24,322 bases of DNA from a virus (taxonomy: Duplodnaviria; Heunggongvirae; Uroviricota; Caudoviricetes), in IMG/VR virus record IMGVR_UViG_651703075_000001, positions 64,001-88,322 of that record; one strand, 5' to 3'. Shown piece by piece: positions 3,169-20,826 of this stretch. Under the pieces are notes generated by a model. That model did no database searches, was not told where the DNA came from, and worked only from the letters and a program-made list of their open reading frames with translations. Every line of letters begins with the position of its first letter. Positions within the stretch are counted from its first letter, which is position 1. A program made the position numbers and the translations under genes.

Positions 3169-3708
3169 ATGAACATTGATTGGAGTAAGGCACCTAAGGG
3201 TGCAACGCACTGGGAGCCAACAAGCCAGAAATTTGTCGGAGGATGGATGAAGAAAGAGGGTTCCTCCTGGTTTTGGTGGCGCAACATGACTCAGACTTGG
3301 AATCCCTCTTATCTCGGTGACCCGTCTCGGCTGGAAACATTCCAGCCCCTACCGCAGAAGACTTGGGACGGCCAGGGCCTGCCTCCCGTTGGGACGGTTT
3401 GCGAGGCAATCCACGAAGACATCAACTCAGGCAAGCCGGTAAAGGCCGAGATACTGAAGCACCACGACAACGGTCTGTCGGTCGCGTTCTTCTGGGTCGA
3501 CGCACCTGTCGAAGCCGAAGGAAATCTGTACTGGGCCCAACGTTTCCGCCCTCTGCGCACGCCCGAGCAGATTGCCGACGAACAGCGTCGTAAGGACATT
3601 ATTGAGTTGGCTAACGTCATCCGCGATGCTGGTGATGGAAACGATTACGTGCTAGCAGAGGCCCTGCATGACGCAGGCTATCGTAAGAAGGAGTCTGATG
3701 ATGACTAA
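3169..3708 (+). CDS. Pseudomonas phage protein of the IDWSKAPxGATH...WDGxGLPPVGTVCE type
   Basis: RBS AAGGAGG; motifs I recognise from Pseudomonas (pro)phage hypotheticals. Confidence 0.8.
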   Translation: MNIDWSKAPKGATHWEPTSQKFVGGWMKKEGSSWFWWRNMTQTWNPSYLGDPSRLETFQPLPQKTWDGQGLPPVGTVCEAIHEDINSGKPVKAEILKHHDNGLSVAFFWVDAPVEAEGNLYWAQRFRPLRTPEQIADEQRRKDIIELANVIRDAGDGNDYVLAEALHDAGYRKKESDDD

Positions 3709-18011: not shown

Positions 18012-18368
18012 ATGAGCAAGTTCGTAAAGGGCCAGAGTGGCAACCCTCGTGGTCGGCCCACCAAGGAAGCTCAGGCCCTCAAGGCTATGTCTGCCGGAGA
18101 GCTTGATCACATCCTCAAAAAGCTGAAGCCTGCCAGTGCCAAGGCTATTCAGCTCATGATCGACGAAATGACCAATGCGTCCCAGACATCTCCAGTACGT
18201 CTCAAGATGGCTGACAAGGTGTTCGCTGCCTACCTGGCAGCCCTCAGGGCACAGGCGTCCATTGACGCAGTAAAGAACAAGTCTGACGGTGTTCCTGAGC
18301 AGGAGGATGAACCTCAGGCCCAGGTCGTAGAATTCTCGCTCACTATGCCTGCCAAGAGAGGAGCATAG
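18012..18368 (+). CDS. DUF5681-type protein, probable terminase small subunit
   Basis: N-terminal FVKGQSGNPRGRP motif; helical body; upstream of terL; RBS AAGGAG. Confidence 0.7.
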   Translation: MSKFVKGQSGNPRGRPTKEAQALKAMSAGELDHILKKLKPASAKAIQLMIDEMTNASQTSPVRLKMADKVFAAYLAALRAQASIDAVKNKSDGVPEQEDEPQAQVVEFSLTMPAKRGA

Positions 18369-18369
18369 C

Positions 18370-18618
18370 ATGCAAGTCCCAGTAGAAGTAATGGACCGGG
18401 TGTTCCCGGAGTCAAGGGTGTATGTGGAATCAGTTCTGGCTGATTGCCAAACCCTGGAAGACCTGGTGAATCACAGGATCAGCCTAAGCCGTAAGATGGG
18501 CCTCAAGGTTCCAGGCTCTCCGGAGTACCGAGAGCTTTGGCTGGCTGAGCAAAGTATCCATGAGATTGAGGGCTATGTCCTCGGCTCTTGTGGTGTAGGG
18601 GCCTCCCAGCCCCACTAG
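18370..18618 (+). CDS. hypothetical protein
   Basis: RBS GAGGAG; 82 aa. Confidence 0.65.
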   Translation: MQVPVEVMDRVFPESRVYVESVLADCQTLEDLVNHRISLSRKMGLKVPGSPEYRELWLAEQSIHEIEGYVLGSCGVGASQPH

Positions 18619-18622
18619 GCGT

Positions 18623-18773
18623 TCCCGGAGCCGTATGGCGGGAGGGGTTGAAGGTTCACCACACGAACCCCCTACGCCCCGGAGGTTGCCGGGGTAGGTC
18701 CTCCAGGCTCTAAAGTCCTGGAGAAGTGTCAGCCGGACCTTTGAGGATGGGAGTCCACCGGCACTCTTGACAC
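18623..18773 (+). ncRNA. candidate structured RNA element (five consecutive hairpins)
   Basis: e.g. GGTTC/GAACC, CCTA..CCCCGG/CCGGGG.TAGG, CTCCAGG/CCTGGAG, GTGTCA..GCCGG/CCGGC..TGACAC; no plausible + strand ORF. Confidence 0.4.
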
Positions 18774-18795
18774 GGCGTACTGAACACGGTTTAAT
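18767..18795 (+). promoter_or_regulatory. sigma70 promoter
   Basis: TTGACA-N17-TTTAAT. Confidence 0.75.
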
Positions 18796-18822
18796 ACCCT
18801 CCACGAAGAAACAGGAGGTACC

Positions 18823-19125
18823 ATGAGAAACATGTTCGTTACGCCCCATGCCAGGAAACGCTTTCGTGAGCGGTTCCGGCTCCAGTTCCACCCCTCGGTC
18901 TTCGAGGACGGTAGAGACATCTACGTCATCCGGAAGCTTTTCGCTGAAGCGAAATACTGTGATTTTGAGCTTCGTATGCGGATAGGAAACTATAACGCGC
19001 TCTGCGTAAAGCACGGCAGGGTCGTAAGGGTTTCCAAGGTTCGGAATTTCGTATTCGTTCACGATGACTCGACGATCTACACAATCCTGAAGGAAGGGAT
19101 GGTTCTGTCAAACGTGAGGTTTTAG
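18823..19125 (+). CDS. hypothetical protein with TxHAxxRxxER motif (DUF4258/RelE-like RNase fold possible)
   Basis: RBS AGGAGG; MFVTPHARKRFRERF and C-terminal FVFVHD...TI. Confidence 0.75.
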   Translation: MRNMFVTPHARKRFRERFRLQFHPSVFEDGRDIYVIRKLFAEAKYCDFELRMRIGNYNALCVKHGRVVRVSKVRNFVFVHDDSTIYTILKEGMVLSNVRF

Positions 19126-19197
19126 GGTAGGGGTCTTGGCGACCAGGTTGGACTCCAAATTCAACCCAGCTCAGTTCGAATCTGAGACTGCCCGCCA
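19125..19197 (+). tRNA. non-canonical tRNA-Trp(CCA)-like RNA
   Basis: Acceptor GGGTAG/CTGCCC, G discriminator, encoded CCA; T-arm CTCAG-TTCGAAT-CTGAG; 7-bp anticodon stem with loop CTCCAAA; D arm GGTC-TTGGC-GACC. Confidence 0.7.
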
Positions 19198-19205
19198 AAA
19201 ATCTC

Positions 19206-19233
19206 TTGACTTTATCTGAAAATGTGGTAAAGT
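19206..19233 (+). promoter_or_regulatory. sigma70 promoter for the tRNA operon
   Basis: TTGACT-N16-TAAAGT with TGn extended -10. Confidence 0.65.
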
Positions 19234-19250
19234 GGATTTAAGAGATTCAG

Positions 19251-19390
19251 ATGTGGGACCGACGAAGCTGATGTGCAGAGGAGGTGATCCAGCATCTCCC
19301 GGACGGGTCCGGGTTACCAACCCGCTAATTTCATAGCCCGACAGCAAGGGTAGTTCCTGCGGGGCCAGGGTCCAAGTGACCCTCCTACAT
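19251..19390 (+). ncRNA. candidate structured leader RNA abutting tRNA-Asn
   Basis: Closing stem ATGTGGG/CCTACAT; hairpins GGAGGTG/CATCTCC, GGGTT/AACCC, AGGGTC/GACCCT. Confidence 0.5.
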
Positions 19391-19467
19391 TCCGTTCGGT
19401 CCCTCAAGGTGAGGGAGCTTGACTGTTAATCAAGACGTGCCTGGTTCGATTCCAGGGAGCGGAGCCA
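19391..19467 (+). tRNA. tRNA-Asn(GTT)
   Basis: Acceptor TCCGTTC/GAGCGGA, CTTGA-CTGTTAA-TCAAG, CCTGG-TTCGATT-CCAGG, GCCA end. Confidence 0.95.
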
Positions 19468-19524
19468 AAAGAGTAACCTCCACGCATAAGGCCTGGCACT
19501 GCGCACCAGGAGGTTAGTTTCAAC

Positions 19525-19612
19525 GGAGGGGTGGCAGAGCGGTTTAATGCACCGGACTGTAAATCCGGCGTCCGACCGGGCATCGCTGGTTCAAATCCAG
19601 CCCCCTCCACCA
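19525..19612 (+). tRNA. tRNA-Tyr(GTA)
   Basis: GGAGGGG/CCCCTCC acceptor, CCGGA-CTGTAAA-TCCGG, long variable arm, ACCA end. Confidence 0.97.
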
Positions 19613-19615
19613 AAT

Positions 19616-19736
19616 GCTGTGTAAGTTGGACTGTTGCAGTGAAGCGATAGGCTCCCCGGATCGTAAGCCGGTAACGTGGGGATAGAGGGCTCCCACCGCT
19701 GAGCAACAGGAGGTTCGATTCCTCAACACAGCCCCA
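19616..19736 (+). ncRNA. 121-nt tRNA-like RNA: acceptor stem, T-arm and CCA, with a large structured insert replacing the anticodon arm
   Basis: GCTGTGT/ACACAGC-C-CCA; GAGG-TTCGATT-CCTC; CTGTTGC/GCAACAG. Confidence 0.75.
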
Positions 19737-19813
19737 AAACTGCTCCAGGCAGTTCAGCTAGGCTAGGCTTGAGAGGTAGTAGCCCGTTTTTCCAAAACCT
19801 CTCACTTACAATC

Positions 19814-19890
19814 AGGCGTGTGGCGAAAAGGTTTAACGCACTGGACTTTGACTCCAGCATTTGTGGGTTCGAATCCCACCACGTCTGCCA
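19814..19890 (+). tRNA. tRNA-Gln(TTG)
   Basis: AGGCGTG/CACGTCT acceptor, CTGGA-CTTTGAC-TCCAG, GTGGG-TTCGAAT-CCCAC, GCCA end. Confidence 0.95.
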
Positions 19891-19949
19891 ATCTACCCGA
19901 TGCTAATTGGGTCTTGTCGCTCCGGGTCAGCGACTCAGAAGTGACCCTT

Positions 19950-19978
19950 AGCCCCGGCGATCTTCGCTGGGGCTTTTT
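19950..19978 (+). terminator. intrinsic terminator ending the tRNA operon
   Basis: AGCCCCGGCGA-TCT-TCGCTGGGGCT-TTTT. Confidence 0.85.
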
Positions 19979-20007
19979 ACTTTCTCAACCCGTAATGGAG
20001 GTTGCAA

Positions 20008-20826
20008 ATGACGTTCCAACCCACTCACGCACAAGCAAGCGTGATGTCTGACGATAAGCACAGTATCATCCTATACGCCTCCCATGCAGGCGGCGGTAAG
20101 TCCCACCTCGTAGCTAAGTGGCTCACCGAACCCATGCACGTGGAAGGATATCGAGGCTTGGCAGCCCGGAGAACCATTCCATACCTCACGGGCCCTGGAG
20201 GCCTGGCGCAACAGATAGTAGATGTTGACCCAACTCTGCGGTTCTTTCGAAGAGATTTGATGGTAAGGACTCCAGATCGCAGGTCCTCCATAGTTCTTCG
20301 AGGCATCTCAAACGAGGAAGCCCCTAGAAGCCTGGGAGGATTCGTATTTCAAAGGGCAGCGGTTGACGAAGCCAACCAGGTAGACAGCAGCGCTCTGACT
20401 TACCTGTTGAGCAGACTCAGGAACCCGCAGTGTCCTGAGGTAACTCCCCAGGTTTTGATGACATTCTCTCACGGAGACTATTCCAGCACATTCCTAGACG
20501 CCCTTGTGCGACCCTTCATTGAAAAAGAGGATAGCGCACGAGGACACGGCGGGGTAGGGAGGATTGATCCCAAGAAGAGTGGTCAGACAAGATGGCTCAC
20601 CTTTTTACGAGGGGTGCCGGTTGTCGCAAAGAACCCGGAGTCTCTGATAGACCTCTTGGAATGCCACACAGGGCAAGAGCCAGAAGAAGCCAACCTCATC
20701 CCGTACACCCTGTACTTCCAGCCGGACGTTCACCCGGTTGTGAAAGAACTCTACCCCGAGTACGAATCTCATCTGAAAACCCTCGCATCACCTTTAAGTG
20801 TTCAGATGACTGGCTACTGGGGGTGA
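20008..20826 (+). CDS. truncated terminase large subunit paralog (ATPase domain only)
   Basis: AGGGKS Walker A, GLAARRTIPYLTGPGGL, VDEANQ Walker B, YLLSRLRNP; collinear with the TerL N-terminus; RBS GGAGG before ATG 20008. Confidence 0.85.
   Translation: MTFQPTHAQASVMSDDKHSIILYASHAGGGKSHLVAKWLTEPMHVEGYRGLAARRTIPYLTGPGGLAQQIVDVDPTLRFFRRDLMVRTPDRRSSIVLRGISNEEAPRSLGGFVFQRAAVDEANQVDSSALTYLLSRLRNPQCPEVTPQVLMTFSHGDYSSTFLDALVRPFIEKEDSARGHGGVGRIDPKKSGQTRWLTFLRGVPVVAKNPESLIDLLECHTGQEPEEANLIPYTLYFQPDVHPVVKELYPEYESHLKTLASPLSVQMTGYWG

What the first reader, a model, noticed from the sequence alone, without database searches (positions are those of the whole stretch)
18623..19978. The 'three-tRNA' locus may be a larger RNA toolkit
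Seen: about 1.35 kb contains three canonical tRNAs interleaved with a non-canonical tRNA-Trp, a CCA-ended tRNA mimic, a structured leader, a five-hairpin element, structured spacers (19474-19516, 19769-19803) and one candidate RNase-fold gene, closed by a single terminator. Inference: a coordinated translation-protection or anti-defence RNA system that standard annotation under-calls.
Basis: inference. Interest (0 to 1): 0.7.

Follow-up and report, generated by a model that had tools for sequence, protein, structure and literature searches.

The report
Phage tRNA locus with extra RNAs
The "three-tRNA" region of this PAK_P3/KPP10-type Pseudomonas phage also holds a conserved odd-shaped tRNA-Trp-like gene, a tRNA-shaped small RNA with no anticodon, two further small RNAs and a toxin-fold protein gene; two of the RNAs are already published, and no function has been shown for any of the extras.

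Summary
The window is a Nankokuvirus, 99.8% identical to PS24 and 99.4% to PAK_P3. ARAGORN finds tRNA-Asn, Tyr and Gln.

The extra elements are mostly real:
- **tRNA-Trp-like gene (19125-19197).** It has a reduced D arm. Relatives exist in at least five Pseudomonas phage lineages, with compensatory changes. No Nankokuvirus record seen annotates it.
- **tRNA mimic (19616-19736).** This is the published PAK_P3 sRNA2/ncRNA2. Its published ends fall on acceptor base +1 and on the discriminator plus CC. Ten of 32 pairs covary.
- **"Leader" (18623 onward).** It overlaps the published ncRNA1 (18556-18766).
- **"Five-hairpin element".** It folds no better than shuffles, but Nanopore cDNA contigs hint at an invariant ~89-nt RNA (19240-19328). 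That RNA carries a 15-nt complement of the 16S rRNA 3' end.
- **Spacer hairpins.** Both show compensatory changes against distant phages.
- **100-aa ORF.** It is a real gene with a RelE/ParE/DUF4258-type fold, and its relatives sit inside phage tRNA clusters.

The best analogue is the T4 tRNA cluster with stable RNAs rnaC and rnaD. "Annotation under-calls this locus" is supported. "Anti-defence or translation-protection system" is untested inference. This scan noted a similar tRNA array with extra RNAs in another Pseudomonas phage (e1-5400030). Interest is moderate.

The parts
18556..18766 (+). ncRNA1 (PAK_P3 sRNA1/ncRNA1), ~210 nt. It is a processed RNA derived from the 3' end and 3' UTR of the 82-aa ORF.
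   Evidence: Published boundaries are PAK_P3 85248-85458, northern-validated, with no TSS (PMC10914365). They map onto the window. A poly(A)-tailed contig end lies at 18766. The noncoding part has 3 variable sites in 148 nt within the genus. Folding z is -0.44. No homolog was found outside Nankokuvirus.
18767..18795 (+). Promoter P17 (TTGACA, 17-nt spacer, TTTAAT), driving the 100-aa ORF and probably the Trp-like RNA.
   Evidence: Annotated as 'putative promoter_17' in the PAK_P3 record. The hexamers were read from the sequence. The simple scan does not list it, because its -10 hexamer lacks A at position 2.
18823..19125 (+). 100-aa gene (PAK_P3 gp163, phrog_11136) with a RelE/ParE/DUF4258-type (BECR) fold. 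The family lives inside phage tRNA clusters.
   Evidence: - No Pfam hit; matches phrog_11136.
- AF2 model with a 25-sequence alignment has pLDDT 94.9.
- VIA-align wide hits are almost all RelE, ParE, YoeB, HigB, BrnT, colicin D and CdiA-CT, Z 4-6.8. The Atlas top hit is a DUF4258 cluster, TM 0.64/0.72.
- 14 of 17 within-genus variable sites are at third codon positions (my count).
- Homologs lie in tRNA clusters in pf16 and 7 of 8 metagenomic loci.
- Expressed early and late, log2FC 1.26.
19125..19197 (+). Non-canonical tRNA-Trp(CCA)-like gene. It has a 6-bp acceptor stem plus a G.A mismatch, no 8/9 linker, a 4-bp D stem with a 5-nt loop, the anticodon loop CUCCAAA, a canonical T arm, G73 and an encoded CCA. 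Its first base is the G of the ORF's TAG stop codon.
   Evidence: - Found by ARAGORN at -ps80 only.
- The MFE structure is a cloverleaf.
- Homologs in K8, KIL4, vB_PseuGesM_254, M5.1 and Boevelstad are unannotated; those in EPA1, EM and LPS-5 are annotated tRNA-Trp.
- Compensatory changes occur in the acceptor, anticodon and T stems.
- No substitutions among the five Nankokuvirus sequences compared, and the 83-nt stretch is 100% identical in 30 Nankokuvirus records.
19206..19233 (+). Promoter P18 (TTGACT, 16-nt spacer, TAAAGT, with TG extension); TSS near 19240.
   Evidence: Found by the promoter scan and annotated as 'putative promoter_18' in the PAK_P3 record. Nanopore cDNA contigs carry 5' adaptor-like sequence abutting 19240 (11 contigs) and 19244.
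19240..19328 (+). It holds the 15-mer AGGAGGTGATCCAGC (19279-19293), complementary to the 3' end of Pseudomonas 16S rRNA, followed by mutually exclusive hairpins and a weak terminator-like hairpin.
   Evidence: - 5' adaptor-like sequence at 19240 and poly(A) at 19328 (9 contigs) in Nanopore cDNA contigs. This is contig-level evidence, so a hint only.
- 0 of 89 variable sites within the genus.
- 19276-19339 is 81% identical to Pakpunavirus, where it sits just upstream of tRNA-Cys.
- The 15-mer is unique in the window; 0.05 matches with up to 2 mismatches are expected by chance.
- The 16S 3' end sequence was seen in many Pseudomonas genomes.
- Folding z is -0.09.
19391..19467 (+). tRNA-Asn (GUU).
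   Evidence: ARAGORN. Rfam tRNA score is 26.9 bits, below the 29-bit cut-off.
19474..19516 (+). Spacer hairpin 8 nt upstream of tRNA-Tyr (8-bp stem, UAACCUCC with GGAGGUUA).
   Evidence: Present in the MFE, z -1.87. The 21-mer at 19502-19522 is 95% identical to the sequence just upstream of tRNA-Pro in Otagovirus M5.1, with one compensatory pair (C-G to G-C).
19525..19612 (+). tRNA-Tyr (GUA).
   Evidence: ARAGORN and Rfam, 64.3 bits. One cDNA contig has the 5' adaptor-like sequence at 19525, and one ends in ...UCCACCA plus poly(A).
19616..19736 (+). ncRNA2 (PAK_P3 sRNA2), a tRNA-shaped RNA without an anticodon arm. It has a 7-bp acceptor stem, an 8-nt unpaired D-like linker, a long P2/P3 helix ending in a junction with two main hairpins plus a 2-bp helix (one hairpin holds an invariant C-GUAA-G loop), a T arm, a C discriminator and CCA.
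   Evidence: - Published ends 86307-86426 (~120 nt on northern blots, processed) map to 19616-19735. That is acceptor base +1 through discriminator plus CC.
- RNAalifold gives 32 pairs, 10 with compensatory changes.
- 98.4% of cells are paired and 0 of 500 shuffles reach the observed covariation; slid controls give 0-1 compensatory pairs.
- The covariance model finds it only in Nankokuvirus and Pakpunavirus.
- No other Rfam family lies within it at E<=10; the weak sX4 hit centred on tRNA-Tyr only clips its 5' end.
19771..19803 (+). Spacer hairpin 10 nt upstream of tRNA-Gln (7-bp stem, 19-nt nearly invariant loop). It lies in a 45-nt block (19756-19800) shared with Flaumdravirus KIL4.
   Evidence: The block is 91% identical to KIL4, where it follows an annotated promoter and precedes tRNA-Arg(ACG). 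Two stem pairs change on both sides (A-U to U-A, G-C to C-G). Folding z of the whole spacer is -0.97.
19814..19890 (+). tRNA-Gln (UUG).
   Evidence: ARAGORN and Rfam, 65.4 bits. Poly(A)-tailed contig ends lie at 19891.
19891..19981 (+). Trailer with two hairpins and the only intrinsic terminator of the locus (stem 19950-19974, then a T run).
   Evidence: Terminator scan. Folding z is -4.78, and 0 of 200 shuffles fold as well.

Best explanation
This is a compound tRNA and small-RNA locus of the kind known from the phage T4 tRNA region.

**Layout.** Two host-type promoters feed it, along with read-through from upstream.
- P17 makes an mRNA for a RelE/DUF4258-fold protein. That mRNA ends in a reduced-D-arm tRNA-Trp-like RNA.
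- P18 makes a leader small RNA followed by tRNA-Asn, tRNA-Tyr, ncRNA2 and tRNA-Gln.
- One terminator closes the locus.

**Processing (inferred).** The host tRNA-maturation enzymes probably cut out five tRNA-shaped RNAs: RNase P at 5' ends, and endonuclease plus 3' trimming to the CCA. Only RNA ends consistent with this were seen; the enzymes were not tested.

**ncRNA2 (inferred).** It most likely uses its acceptor/T-arm frame as a processing and stability scaffold for a conserved ~75-nt structured insert. That insert would be the working part.

**Trp-like RNA (inferred).** It is most likely a selected, possibly chargeable, tRNA-Trp variant.

**Shown here:** anatomy, conservation, covariation, and the match between published RNA ends and the tRNA-like ends.

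**Not shown:** the processing enzymes, the scaffold role, aminoacylation, and any downstream function.
For: - **Identity of the phage.** The window is a Nankokuvirus.
- **Five T-arm, acceptor and NCCA-A elements** can be read in the sequence.
- **ncRNA2 ends.** The published single-nucleotide ends of the northern-validated ncRNA2 fall on acceptor base +1 and on discriminator plus CC.
- **ncRNA2 structure.** 10 of 32 pairs are compensatory, 98.4% of cells are paired, and 0 of 500 shuffles reach this.
- **Trp-like family.** It covaries in three stems. The anticodon loop, G73 and U4-G69 are invariant across at least five phage lineages. Three Pakpunavirus records call it tRNA-Trp.
- **Within-genus variability.** Leader sRNA 0%, Trp-like no substitutions, ncRNA2 1.7%. 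Compare 2.6-5.2% for the canonical tRNAs, about 6% for the ORFs and 21% for the P17 region.
- **RNA ends in cDNA contigs.** 5' adaptor-like sequence at 19240; poly(A) at 19328, 19739, 19891 and 18766.
- **Expression.** sRNA1, sRNA2 and gp163 are expressed.
- **Analogue.** T4 rnaC lies in the T4 tRNA cluster and carries a T arm near its 3' end.
Against: - No experiment or tool result shows which enzymes process these RNAs.
- ncRNA2 homologs in Pakpunavirus, and in Ab04, lack an encoded CCA.
- Folding energies of ncRNA1, the leader and ncRNA2 are no better than shuffles.
- Covariation for ncRNA2 rests on about three independent lineages from two genera.
- The RNA-end evidence comes from assembled contigs, not raw reads.
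- RF00005 gives no match to the Trp-like gene at E<=10, and its accumulation as a discrete RNA was not shown.
Confidence: 0.7

Rival explanations
1. Relics and by-products. The non-canonical elements are decaying tRNA genes and structured spacer fragments. They accumulate only because they are excised with the real tRNAs and resist nucleases, and they have no function of their own.
For: - tRNA content in this clade changes quickly, from 3 to more than 20 genes.
- K8 carries unannotated T-arm/acceptor remnants where EPA1 has tRNA-Tyr and tRNA-Met.
- ncRNA2 has no anticodon, and its encoded CCA is not conserved.
- Folding z-scores are unremarkable.
Against: - Ten compensatory pairs occur in ncRNA2, including its non-tRNA insert.
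- The Trp-like gene covaries across genera while its anticodon loop stays invariant.
- These elements vary less within the genus than the canonical tRNAs and the neighbouring genes.
- ncRNA1 and ncRNA2 rank 18th and 24th among 86 late gene features by expression.
Confidence: 0.15
2. One reading: a tRNA-damage and counter-damage module.
- The phage tRNAs (Asn, Tyr, Gln, Trp-like) would replace host tRNAs that are cut during infection.
- The cutting would be done by a host anticodon nuclease or by the phage's own RelE-fold protein.
- ncRNA2 would act as a decoy or regulator.
For: - The ORF has the fold shared by RelE, colicin D/E5 and CdiA-CT tRNases. Its family tracks tRNA clusters in two unrelated phage lineages, and it is already expressed early.
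- PAK_P3 infection raises the host rtcBA RNA-repair operon about 80-fold.
- Only the Gln codon is used more often by the phage than by the host, so codon supply does not explain the tRNA set.
- From my own knowledge, not tested here: Asn and Tyr tRNAs are colicin E5 targets, and RtcR responds to damaged tRNA.
Against: - There is no sequence match to any nuclease family.
- The same fold includes non-nucleases such as ParE.
- No partner immunity gene is evident.
- Deleting host rtcB changed neither growth nor plating efficiency.
- No defence system has been tied to these phages.
Confidence: 0.15
3. Ribosome-directed regulators.
- The leader sRNA would pair through its 15-nt complement with the free 3' end of 16S rRNA.
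- It would act either as a sponge or as a sensor choosing between termination near 19328 and read-through into the tRNAs.
- ncRNA2 would occupy ribosomal tRNA sites, as Chevallereau et al. proposed.
For: - The 15-mer at 19279-19293 is unique in the window, invariant within the genus, and kept as 14 nt in Pakpunavirus.
- It matches the Pseudomonas 16S 3' end.
- It lies in a hairpin that overlaps two further mutually exclusive hairpins. The last of these is followed by a U-rich stretch where cDNA contigs end.
- ncRNA2 shares the T loop of host tRNAs.
Against: - The alternative hairpins were worked out by hand, and no covariation test was possible.
- Folding z is -0.09.
- Half of the 15-mer is sequestered in a stem.
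- It may simply be the remnant of a strong ribosome-binding site.
- There are no binding data.
Confidence: 0.1

Closest known systems
Bacteriophage T4 tRNA gene cluster with stable RNAs rnaC (species 1) and rnaD (species 2)
   Same: - Non-tRNA stable RNAs are encoded inside a phage tRNA cluster.
- From established knowledge of T4, they are co-transcribed and cut out with the tRNAs.
- rnaC (139 nt) carries a canonical T arm next to its 3' end.
- By my own reading of the unannotated T4 interval between tRNA-Arg and rnaC, the putative rnaD ends in CCA.
- Function has been unknown since the 1970s.
   Different: - There is no sequence homology. The ncRNA2 covariance model scores only 11.4 bits on rnaC, over the T-arm part, and the alignment fails outside the T arm.
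- The internal architecture differs.
- The host genus and the phage family differ.
PAK_P3 sRNA1/sRNA2 (Chevallereau 2016), also called ncRNA1/ncRNA2 (Putzeys 2024)
   Same: They are the same loci. ncRNA1 and ncRNA2 are identical between PAK_P3 and the window over their mapped lengths.
   Different: - The papers describe them as processed 3'-UTR-derived small RNAs and note only an 11-nt T-loop match.
- In the library searched I found no paper describing the acceptor stem, T arm and CCA frame, the covariation, or the fit of the ends to tRNA processing.
tmRNA tRNA-like domain
   Same: Both have an acceptor stem, an unpaired D-like loop, a long helix in place of the anticodon stem, a T arm and a CCA end.
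   Different: - ncRNA2 is 121 nt, and no tag reading frame or pseudoknot was looked for.
- Pair 3:70 is U-A, U-G or C-G, never G-U.
- ARAGORN finds no tmRNA even at a lowered threshold.
RelE/ParE/DUF4258 (BECR-fold) small toxins and tRNases, for the 100-aa ORF
   Same: - It has the same topology: N-terminal helices packed on an antiparallel sheet.
- VIA-align Z is 4-6.8 over 65-85 residues, and TM is 0.64/0.72 to a DUF4258 cluster.
- A conserved N-terminal H-A-x-x-R-F-x-x-R-F motif resembles, from memory, the DUF4258 signature.
   Different: - No profile match reaches significance.
- There is no adjacent antitoxin-like gene.
- The family is confined to phage tRNA clusters.

Membership tests
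Canonical bacterial tRNA (Rfam RF00005), for the Trp-like gene 19125-19197 | 7-bp acceptor stem, discriminator and CCA end | tested here: met
   Six pairs plus a G7.A66 mismatch in this phage, and 7 pairs in relatives. G73 and CCA are encoded.
Canonical bacterial tRNA (Rfam RF00005), for the Trp-like gene 19125-19197 | Two-nucleotide 8/9 linker and a D arm with a 7-11-nt loop | tested here: not met
   There is no 8/9 linker beyond the mismatched G7. The D stem has 4 bp and the loop is 5 nt (UUGGC).
Canonical bacterial tRNA (Rfam RF00005), for the Trp-like gene 19125-19197 | Anticodon arm with a 7-nt loop (U33, purine 37), and a T arm with the T-psi-C loop | tested here: met
   The anticodon loop is CUCCAAA and the T loop is UUCGAAU on a 5-bp stem. 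Both loops are invariant across the family, apart from U32 in the K8-type members.
Canonical bacterial tRNA (Rfam RF00005), for the Trp-like gene 19125-19197 | Covariance-model score at or above the gathering cut-off | tested here: not met
   No RF00005 match at E<=10 over 19125-19197. ARAGORN finds it only at -ps80.
Canonical bacterial tRNA (Rfam RF00005), for the Trp-like gene 19125-19197 | Aminoacylation and use in translation | not testable with these tools
   This needs acid-gel northern blots or tRNA-seq.
T4-type stable tRNA-like RNAs of phage tRNA clusters (rnaC/rnaD), for ncRNA2 | Encoded within a tRNA cluster and released as a discrete stable RNA by processing | tested here: met
   It lies between tRNA-Tyr and tRNA-Gln. 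It runs at ~120 nt on northern blots and has no TSS. Its ends map.
T4-type stable tRNA-like RNAs of phage tRNA clusters (rnaC/rnaD), for ncRNA2 | Sequence or structure homology to T4 rnaC | tested here: not met
   Model R1 scores 11.4 bits on the T-arm part only, and the MAFFT alignment fails elsewhere. ncRNA2 works like rnaC but is not a shown relative.
tmRNA, for ncRNA2 | G3-U70 alanine identity pair | tested here: not met
   Pair 3:70 is U-A, U-G or C-G, never G-U.
tmRNA, for ncRNA2 | Tag reading frame and pseudoknots | tested here: inconclusive
   ARAGORN tmRNA mode found nothing. I did not search separately for a tag reading frame or pseudoknots.
RelE/ParE/DUF4258 BECR-fold superfamily, for ORF 18823-19125 | Characteristic fold | tested here: met
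   The model has pLDDT 94.9. The top 40 VIA-align hits are nearly all from this superfamily, Z up to 6.8. Foldseek is weak, best E 0.05. Atlas gives TM 0.64/0.72 to a DUF4258 cluster.
RelE/ParE/DUF4258 BECR-fold superfamily, for ORF 18823-19125 | Profile match to a member family (for example PF14076) | tested here: not met
   No Pfam hit for the window protein. DUF4258 appears at E 0.27 in 1 of 25 relatives.
RelE/ParE/DUF4258 BECR-fold superfamily, for ORF 18823-19125 | RNase activity and a cognate antitoxin or immunity partner | not testable with these tools
   No adjacent partner ORF exists in the window. Small overlapping ORFs lie upstream in L005, L006 and L008 and were not examined.

The most novel reading that the evidence does not exclude
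The 100-aa RelE/DUF4258-fold protein is a phage tRNase. It would cut host tRNAs early in infection, which would explain the ~80-fold induction of the host rtcBA repair operon. The co-located phage tRNAs (Asn, Tyr, Gln and the reduced-D-arm Trp) would be resistant replacements. The anticodon-less ncRNA2 would act as a decoy or modulator of the same enzyme or of host tRNA-binding factors. Together these would form a self-contained 'cut and replace' translation-takeover cassette.
Probability: 0.12. Interest if true: 0.8.

Novelty: new variant of a known kind. Interest (0 to 1): 0.5.

Why it matters
PAK_P3/KPP10-type phages are phage-therapy candidates, and PAK_P3 is a transcriptomics model.

- **ncRNA2.** It is one of the most abundant late phage RNAs and has had no structural or mechanistic description. 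Seeing it as a tRNA-shaped RNA, with mapped ends that match tRNA processing, gives direct tests: RNase P dependence, charging, and binding partners.
- **Trp-like gene.** A conserved reduced-D-arm tRNA-Trp missed by standard tools changes the tRNA count for several Pseudomonas phage genera. It would also be a natural example of a minimal-D-arm tRNA in a bacterial system.
- **The ORF.** The link between a RelE-fold protein family and phage tRNA clusters, together with the published rtcBA induction, makes the question of why phages carry tRNAs testable in this system.

Tried and rejected
- **Rfam.** At gathering and at E<=10, only the three tRNAs and chance-level sRNA hits appear. There is no Y RNA, tmRNA or other family within ncRNA2, the leader or ncRNA1; a chance-level sX4 hit over tRNA-Tyr clips the 5' end of ncRNA2.
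- **ARAGORN.** tmRNA mode and intron mode give nothing sensible for ncRNA2.
- **Folding z-scores.** They are not informative for these elements.
- **ncRNA2 covariance model R1 on other genera.** On Flaumdravirus, Otagovirus, vB_PseuGesM_254, Boevelstad, T4-like metagenomic loci and T4 itself, it gives only weak hits to ordinary tRNAs.
- **IMG/VR scan with the conserved core of ncRNA2.** Of 25 loci, only 6 known Nankokuvirus or Pakpunavirus contigs are real members.
- **Homology of ncRNA2 to T4 rnaC.** Not supported.
- **The Trp-like gene as a copy of the canonical tRNA-Trp of pf16-type phages.** The sequences are unrelated.
- **Small ORF in the leader** (GTG at 19284). The changes against K8 are mostly at first codon positions (my reading), so it does not look coding.
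- **AF2 with an 11-sequence alignment.** pLDDT was 49.9 and the model was unusable.
- **Sequence searches for the ORF.** Pfam and the PDB gave nothing significant.
- **Supplementary tables of Putzeys 2024.** Not held, so I could not check whether the 19240-19328 RNA is one of their four PAK_P3 5'-UTR ncRNA candidates.
- **Depth figures from read laying.** They are per contig and cannot rank RNAs, so I used only the adaptor and poly(A) ends, as hints.
- **P. aeruginosa 16S.** It was not among the listed genome hits. The 3' end was confirmed in other Pseudomonas species and through primer use in P. aeruginosa papers.


Full report
**What the window is.** The 1.7 kb around the finding is 99.8% identical to Pseudomonas phage PS24 and 99.4% to PAK_P3. 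All 34 near matches are Nankokuvirus phages of P. aeruginosa. The window is the right end of an 88,322-bp phage record. The genus is described in print as carrying only three tRNAs: Asn, Tyr and Gln (PMC4309531).

**Canonical tRNAs and transcription signals.**
- ARAGORN finds tRNA-Asn at 19391-19467, tRNA-Tyr at 19525-19612 and tRNA-Gln at 19814-19890.
- Rfam confirms Tyr and Gln. Asn scores 26.9 bits, below the 29-bit cut-off.
- One intrinsic terminator lies on the + strand at 19950-19974, and a sigma-70-type promoter at 19206-19233.
- The PAK_P3 record annotates that promoter and another at 18767-18795. It also annotates two 'small non coding RNAs (RNA-Seq)' and two antisense RNAs.
- So the locus has at least two internal promoters. 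It is not a single unit.

**The tRNA-Trp-like gene (19125-19197).**
- ARAGORN reports it only at a lowered threshold, and the Rfam tRNA model gives nothing at E<=10.
- Its lowest-energy fold is a cloverleaf. It has six acceptor pairs plus a G.A mismatch, no 8/9 linker, a 4-bp D stem with a 5-nt UUGGC loop, the anticodon loop CUCCAAA, a standard T arm, G73 and an encoded CCA.
- Homologs occur at the matching place in the tRNA clusters of Pakpunavirus, Flaumdravirus KIL4, Otagovirus M5.1, vB_PseuGesM_254 and Boevelstad.
- They are unannotated there, except in three Pakpunavirus records that call them tRNA-Trp.
- Across these lineages, acceptor pairs 5-7, the anticodon stem and the T stem change by compensatory substitutions. 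The anticodon loop, G73 and a U4-G69 wobble never change.
- Among the five Nankokuvirus sequences compared the gene has no substitutions, and the 83-nt stretch is 100% identical in 30 Nankokuvirus records.
- Its first base is the last base of the TAG stop codon of the upstream ORF. An RNase P cut would therefore leave that mRNA without a complete stop codon. This last point is inference.

**The CCA-ended mimic (19616-19736) is PAK_P3 sRNA2/ncRNA2.**
- Chevallereau et al. found it abundant late in infection and noted only an 11-nt match to tRNA T loops.
- Putzeys et al. refined it to PAK_P3 86307-86426. It is about 120 nt on northern blots, has no TSS and is processed.
- Mapped onto the window, this is 19616-19735. 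It runs from the first G of the 7-bp acceptor stem to the discriminator plus CC. The final A cannot be told from the poly(A) tail added in that method.
- Six sequences from Nankokuvirus and Pakpunavirus give a consensus of 32 pairs. These form the acceptor stem, a long P2/P3 helix, two main hairpins plus a 2-bp helix, and the T arm.
- 98.4% of cells are paired and 10 pairs carry compensatory changes. None of 500 shuffles reaches this, and slid controls give 0-1.
- One hairpin holds an invariant C-GUAA-G loop (my reading).
- The Pakpunavirus copies lack an encoded CCA, as does Ab04.
- A covariance model finds the family only in these two genera.
- In the library searched, no paper holds both 'PAK_P3' and 'tRNA-like'.

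**ncRNA1 and the 'leader'.** It ends just before the -35 hexamer of P17. It is conserved within the genus, with 3 variable sites in 148 noncoding nt, against 21% in the adjacent promoter region. It folds no better than shuffles, and I found no homolog outside the genus.

**The 'five-hairpin element'.**
- Its folding energy is unremarkable, z -0.27.
- Contigs assembled from the PAK_P3 Nanopore cDNA runs carry a 5' adaptor-like sequence at 19240 (11 contigs; I read it as the cDNA adaptor) and poly(A) at 19328 (9 contigs).
- This suggests an ~89-nt primary transcript from P18. It is contig-level evidence and only a hint.
- The stretch has no variable site within the genus. Its core is 81% identical to a Pakpunavirus element just upstream of tRNA-Cys.
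- It contains AGGAGGTGATCCAGC at 19279-19293, which is unique in the window.
- That 15-mer is the exact complement of the last bases of Pseudomonas 16S rRNA...GCGGCTGGATCACCTCCTTA (primer use).
- By hand I see three overlapping, mutually exclusive hairpins. The last is followed by a U-rich stretch where the cDNA ends. This looks like an attenuator, but I could not test it.

**Spacers.**
- The hairpin at 19771-19803 lies in a 45-nt block that is 91% identical to KIL4. Two stem pairs there change on both sides and the 19-nt loop is nearly invariant.
- The hairpin at 19474-19516 shares 21 nt with Otagovirus M5.1 upstream of tRNA-Pro and shows one compensatory pair.
- Both sit 8-10 nt upstream of a tRNA 5' end.
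- Each rests on a single distant comparator.

**The ORF (18823-19125, PAK_P3 gp163).**
- 14 of its 17 within-genus variable sites are at third codon positions (my count), so it is a real gene.
- It has no Pfam or PDB sequence match.
- With a 25-sequence alignment the AF2 model reaches pLDDT 94.9.
- An exhaustive structural search returns almost only RelE, ParE, YoeB, HigB, BrnT, colicin D and CdiA-CT toxins, Z 4-6.8. Foldseek is weak, best E 0.05. The nearest Atlas cluster is DUF4258, TM 0.64/0.72.
- His9, Arg13 and Thr87 are invariant, and Arg17 is nearly so.
- Relatives at 30-66% identity lie inside tRNA clusters in 7 of 8 metagenomic loci, often within 100 nt of the next tRNA. The same holds in the T4-like P. 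putida phage pf16.
- gp163 is already highly expressed at 3.5 min.
- So 'RNase-fold gene' holds at the level of fold. Activity is unknown.

**Interpretation.**
- The anatomy matches the T4 tRNA region. There the stable RNAs rnaC and rnaD sit among the tRNAs, and rnaC carries a T arm near its 3' end.
- I found no homology between ncRNA2 and rnaC.
- I read ncRNA2 as a natural tRNA-scaffold RNA. The acceptor/T-arm frame would give precise excision and stable ends, and the conserved insert would be the effector. This is inference.
- The anti-defence reading has only circumstantial support: the fold of gp163, the published 80-fold rise of the host rtcBA operon, and a tRNA set that codon usage does not explain.
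- Against it, deleting host rtcB had no effect.

**Earlier notes of this scan.** They described the same sub-elements on this window, and a similar tRNA array with extra RNA cassettes in a T4-like Pseudomonas phage. I used them as leads only.

**Verdict.** The observation mostly holds. The claim that annotation under-calls the locus is right. The functional claim is open. Two of the RNAs are already published. The new points are these:
- the tRNA-shaped architecture and processing logic of ncRNA2;
- the conserved reduced-D-arm tRNA-Trp-like gene;
- the leader RNA with the 16S complement;
- the association of the ORF family with tRNA clusters.

Noticed in passing
window 20002-20826: A 274-aa ORF right after the terminator matches terminase large-subunit families over the ATPase part only: phrog_15848 (a 272-position profile, E 5e-195) and a weak Pfam Terminase_3 hit. 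Related phages K8 and EPA1 have a full 506-aa TerL at this place.
   Followed up: no
window 18012-18368: A 118-aa DUF5681 protein (GNPRGRP motif) is the gene that directly precedes the tRNA cluster in K8, KIL4 and vB_PseuGesM_254. In Nankokuvirus an 82-aa ORF, ncRNA1 and the 100-aa ORF lie between it and the tRNAs.
   Followed up: partly
L003 (phage K8) 2340-2500: Two unannotated T-arm, acceptor and CCA remnants lie between tRNA-Asp and tRNA-Cys, where phage EPA1 has annotated tRNA-Tyr and tRNA-Met. tRNA genes in this clade decay or diverge beyond what standard tools detect.
   Followed up: partly
window 19628-19757, minus strand (PAK_P3 as19), and 19958-20163, minus strand (as20): The PAK_P3 record annotates antisense RNAs opposite ncRNA2 and opposite the terminator and start of the TerL-like ORF. 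as19 is flagged late-only, while the published table puts as20 higher early. Opposite a very abundant structured RNA, as19 could be a library artefact.
   Followed up: no
window 19123-19125: The TAG stop codon of the 100-aa ORF shares its G with base +1 of the Trp-like RNA. An RNase P cut there would leave a non-stop mRNA.
   Followed up: partly
L005-L008, L016, L017 (metagenomic T4-like Pseudomonas-type phages): Their tRNA clusters hold long gaps without called tRNAs or genes, and YqeY-domain genes lie next to the clusters. Model R1 gives weak tRNA-frame hits in some gaps (for example L006 2513-2623 and L005 3489-3600). These may be other tRNA-like RNAs with inserts.
   Followed up: no
L011 (phage Boevelstad) 3410-3713: The tRNA locus tags skip tRNA0011 and tRNA0010 exactly where the unannotated Trp-like homolog lies (3501-3576).
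   Followed up: no
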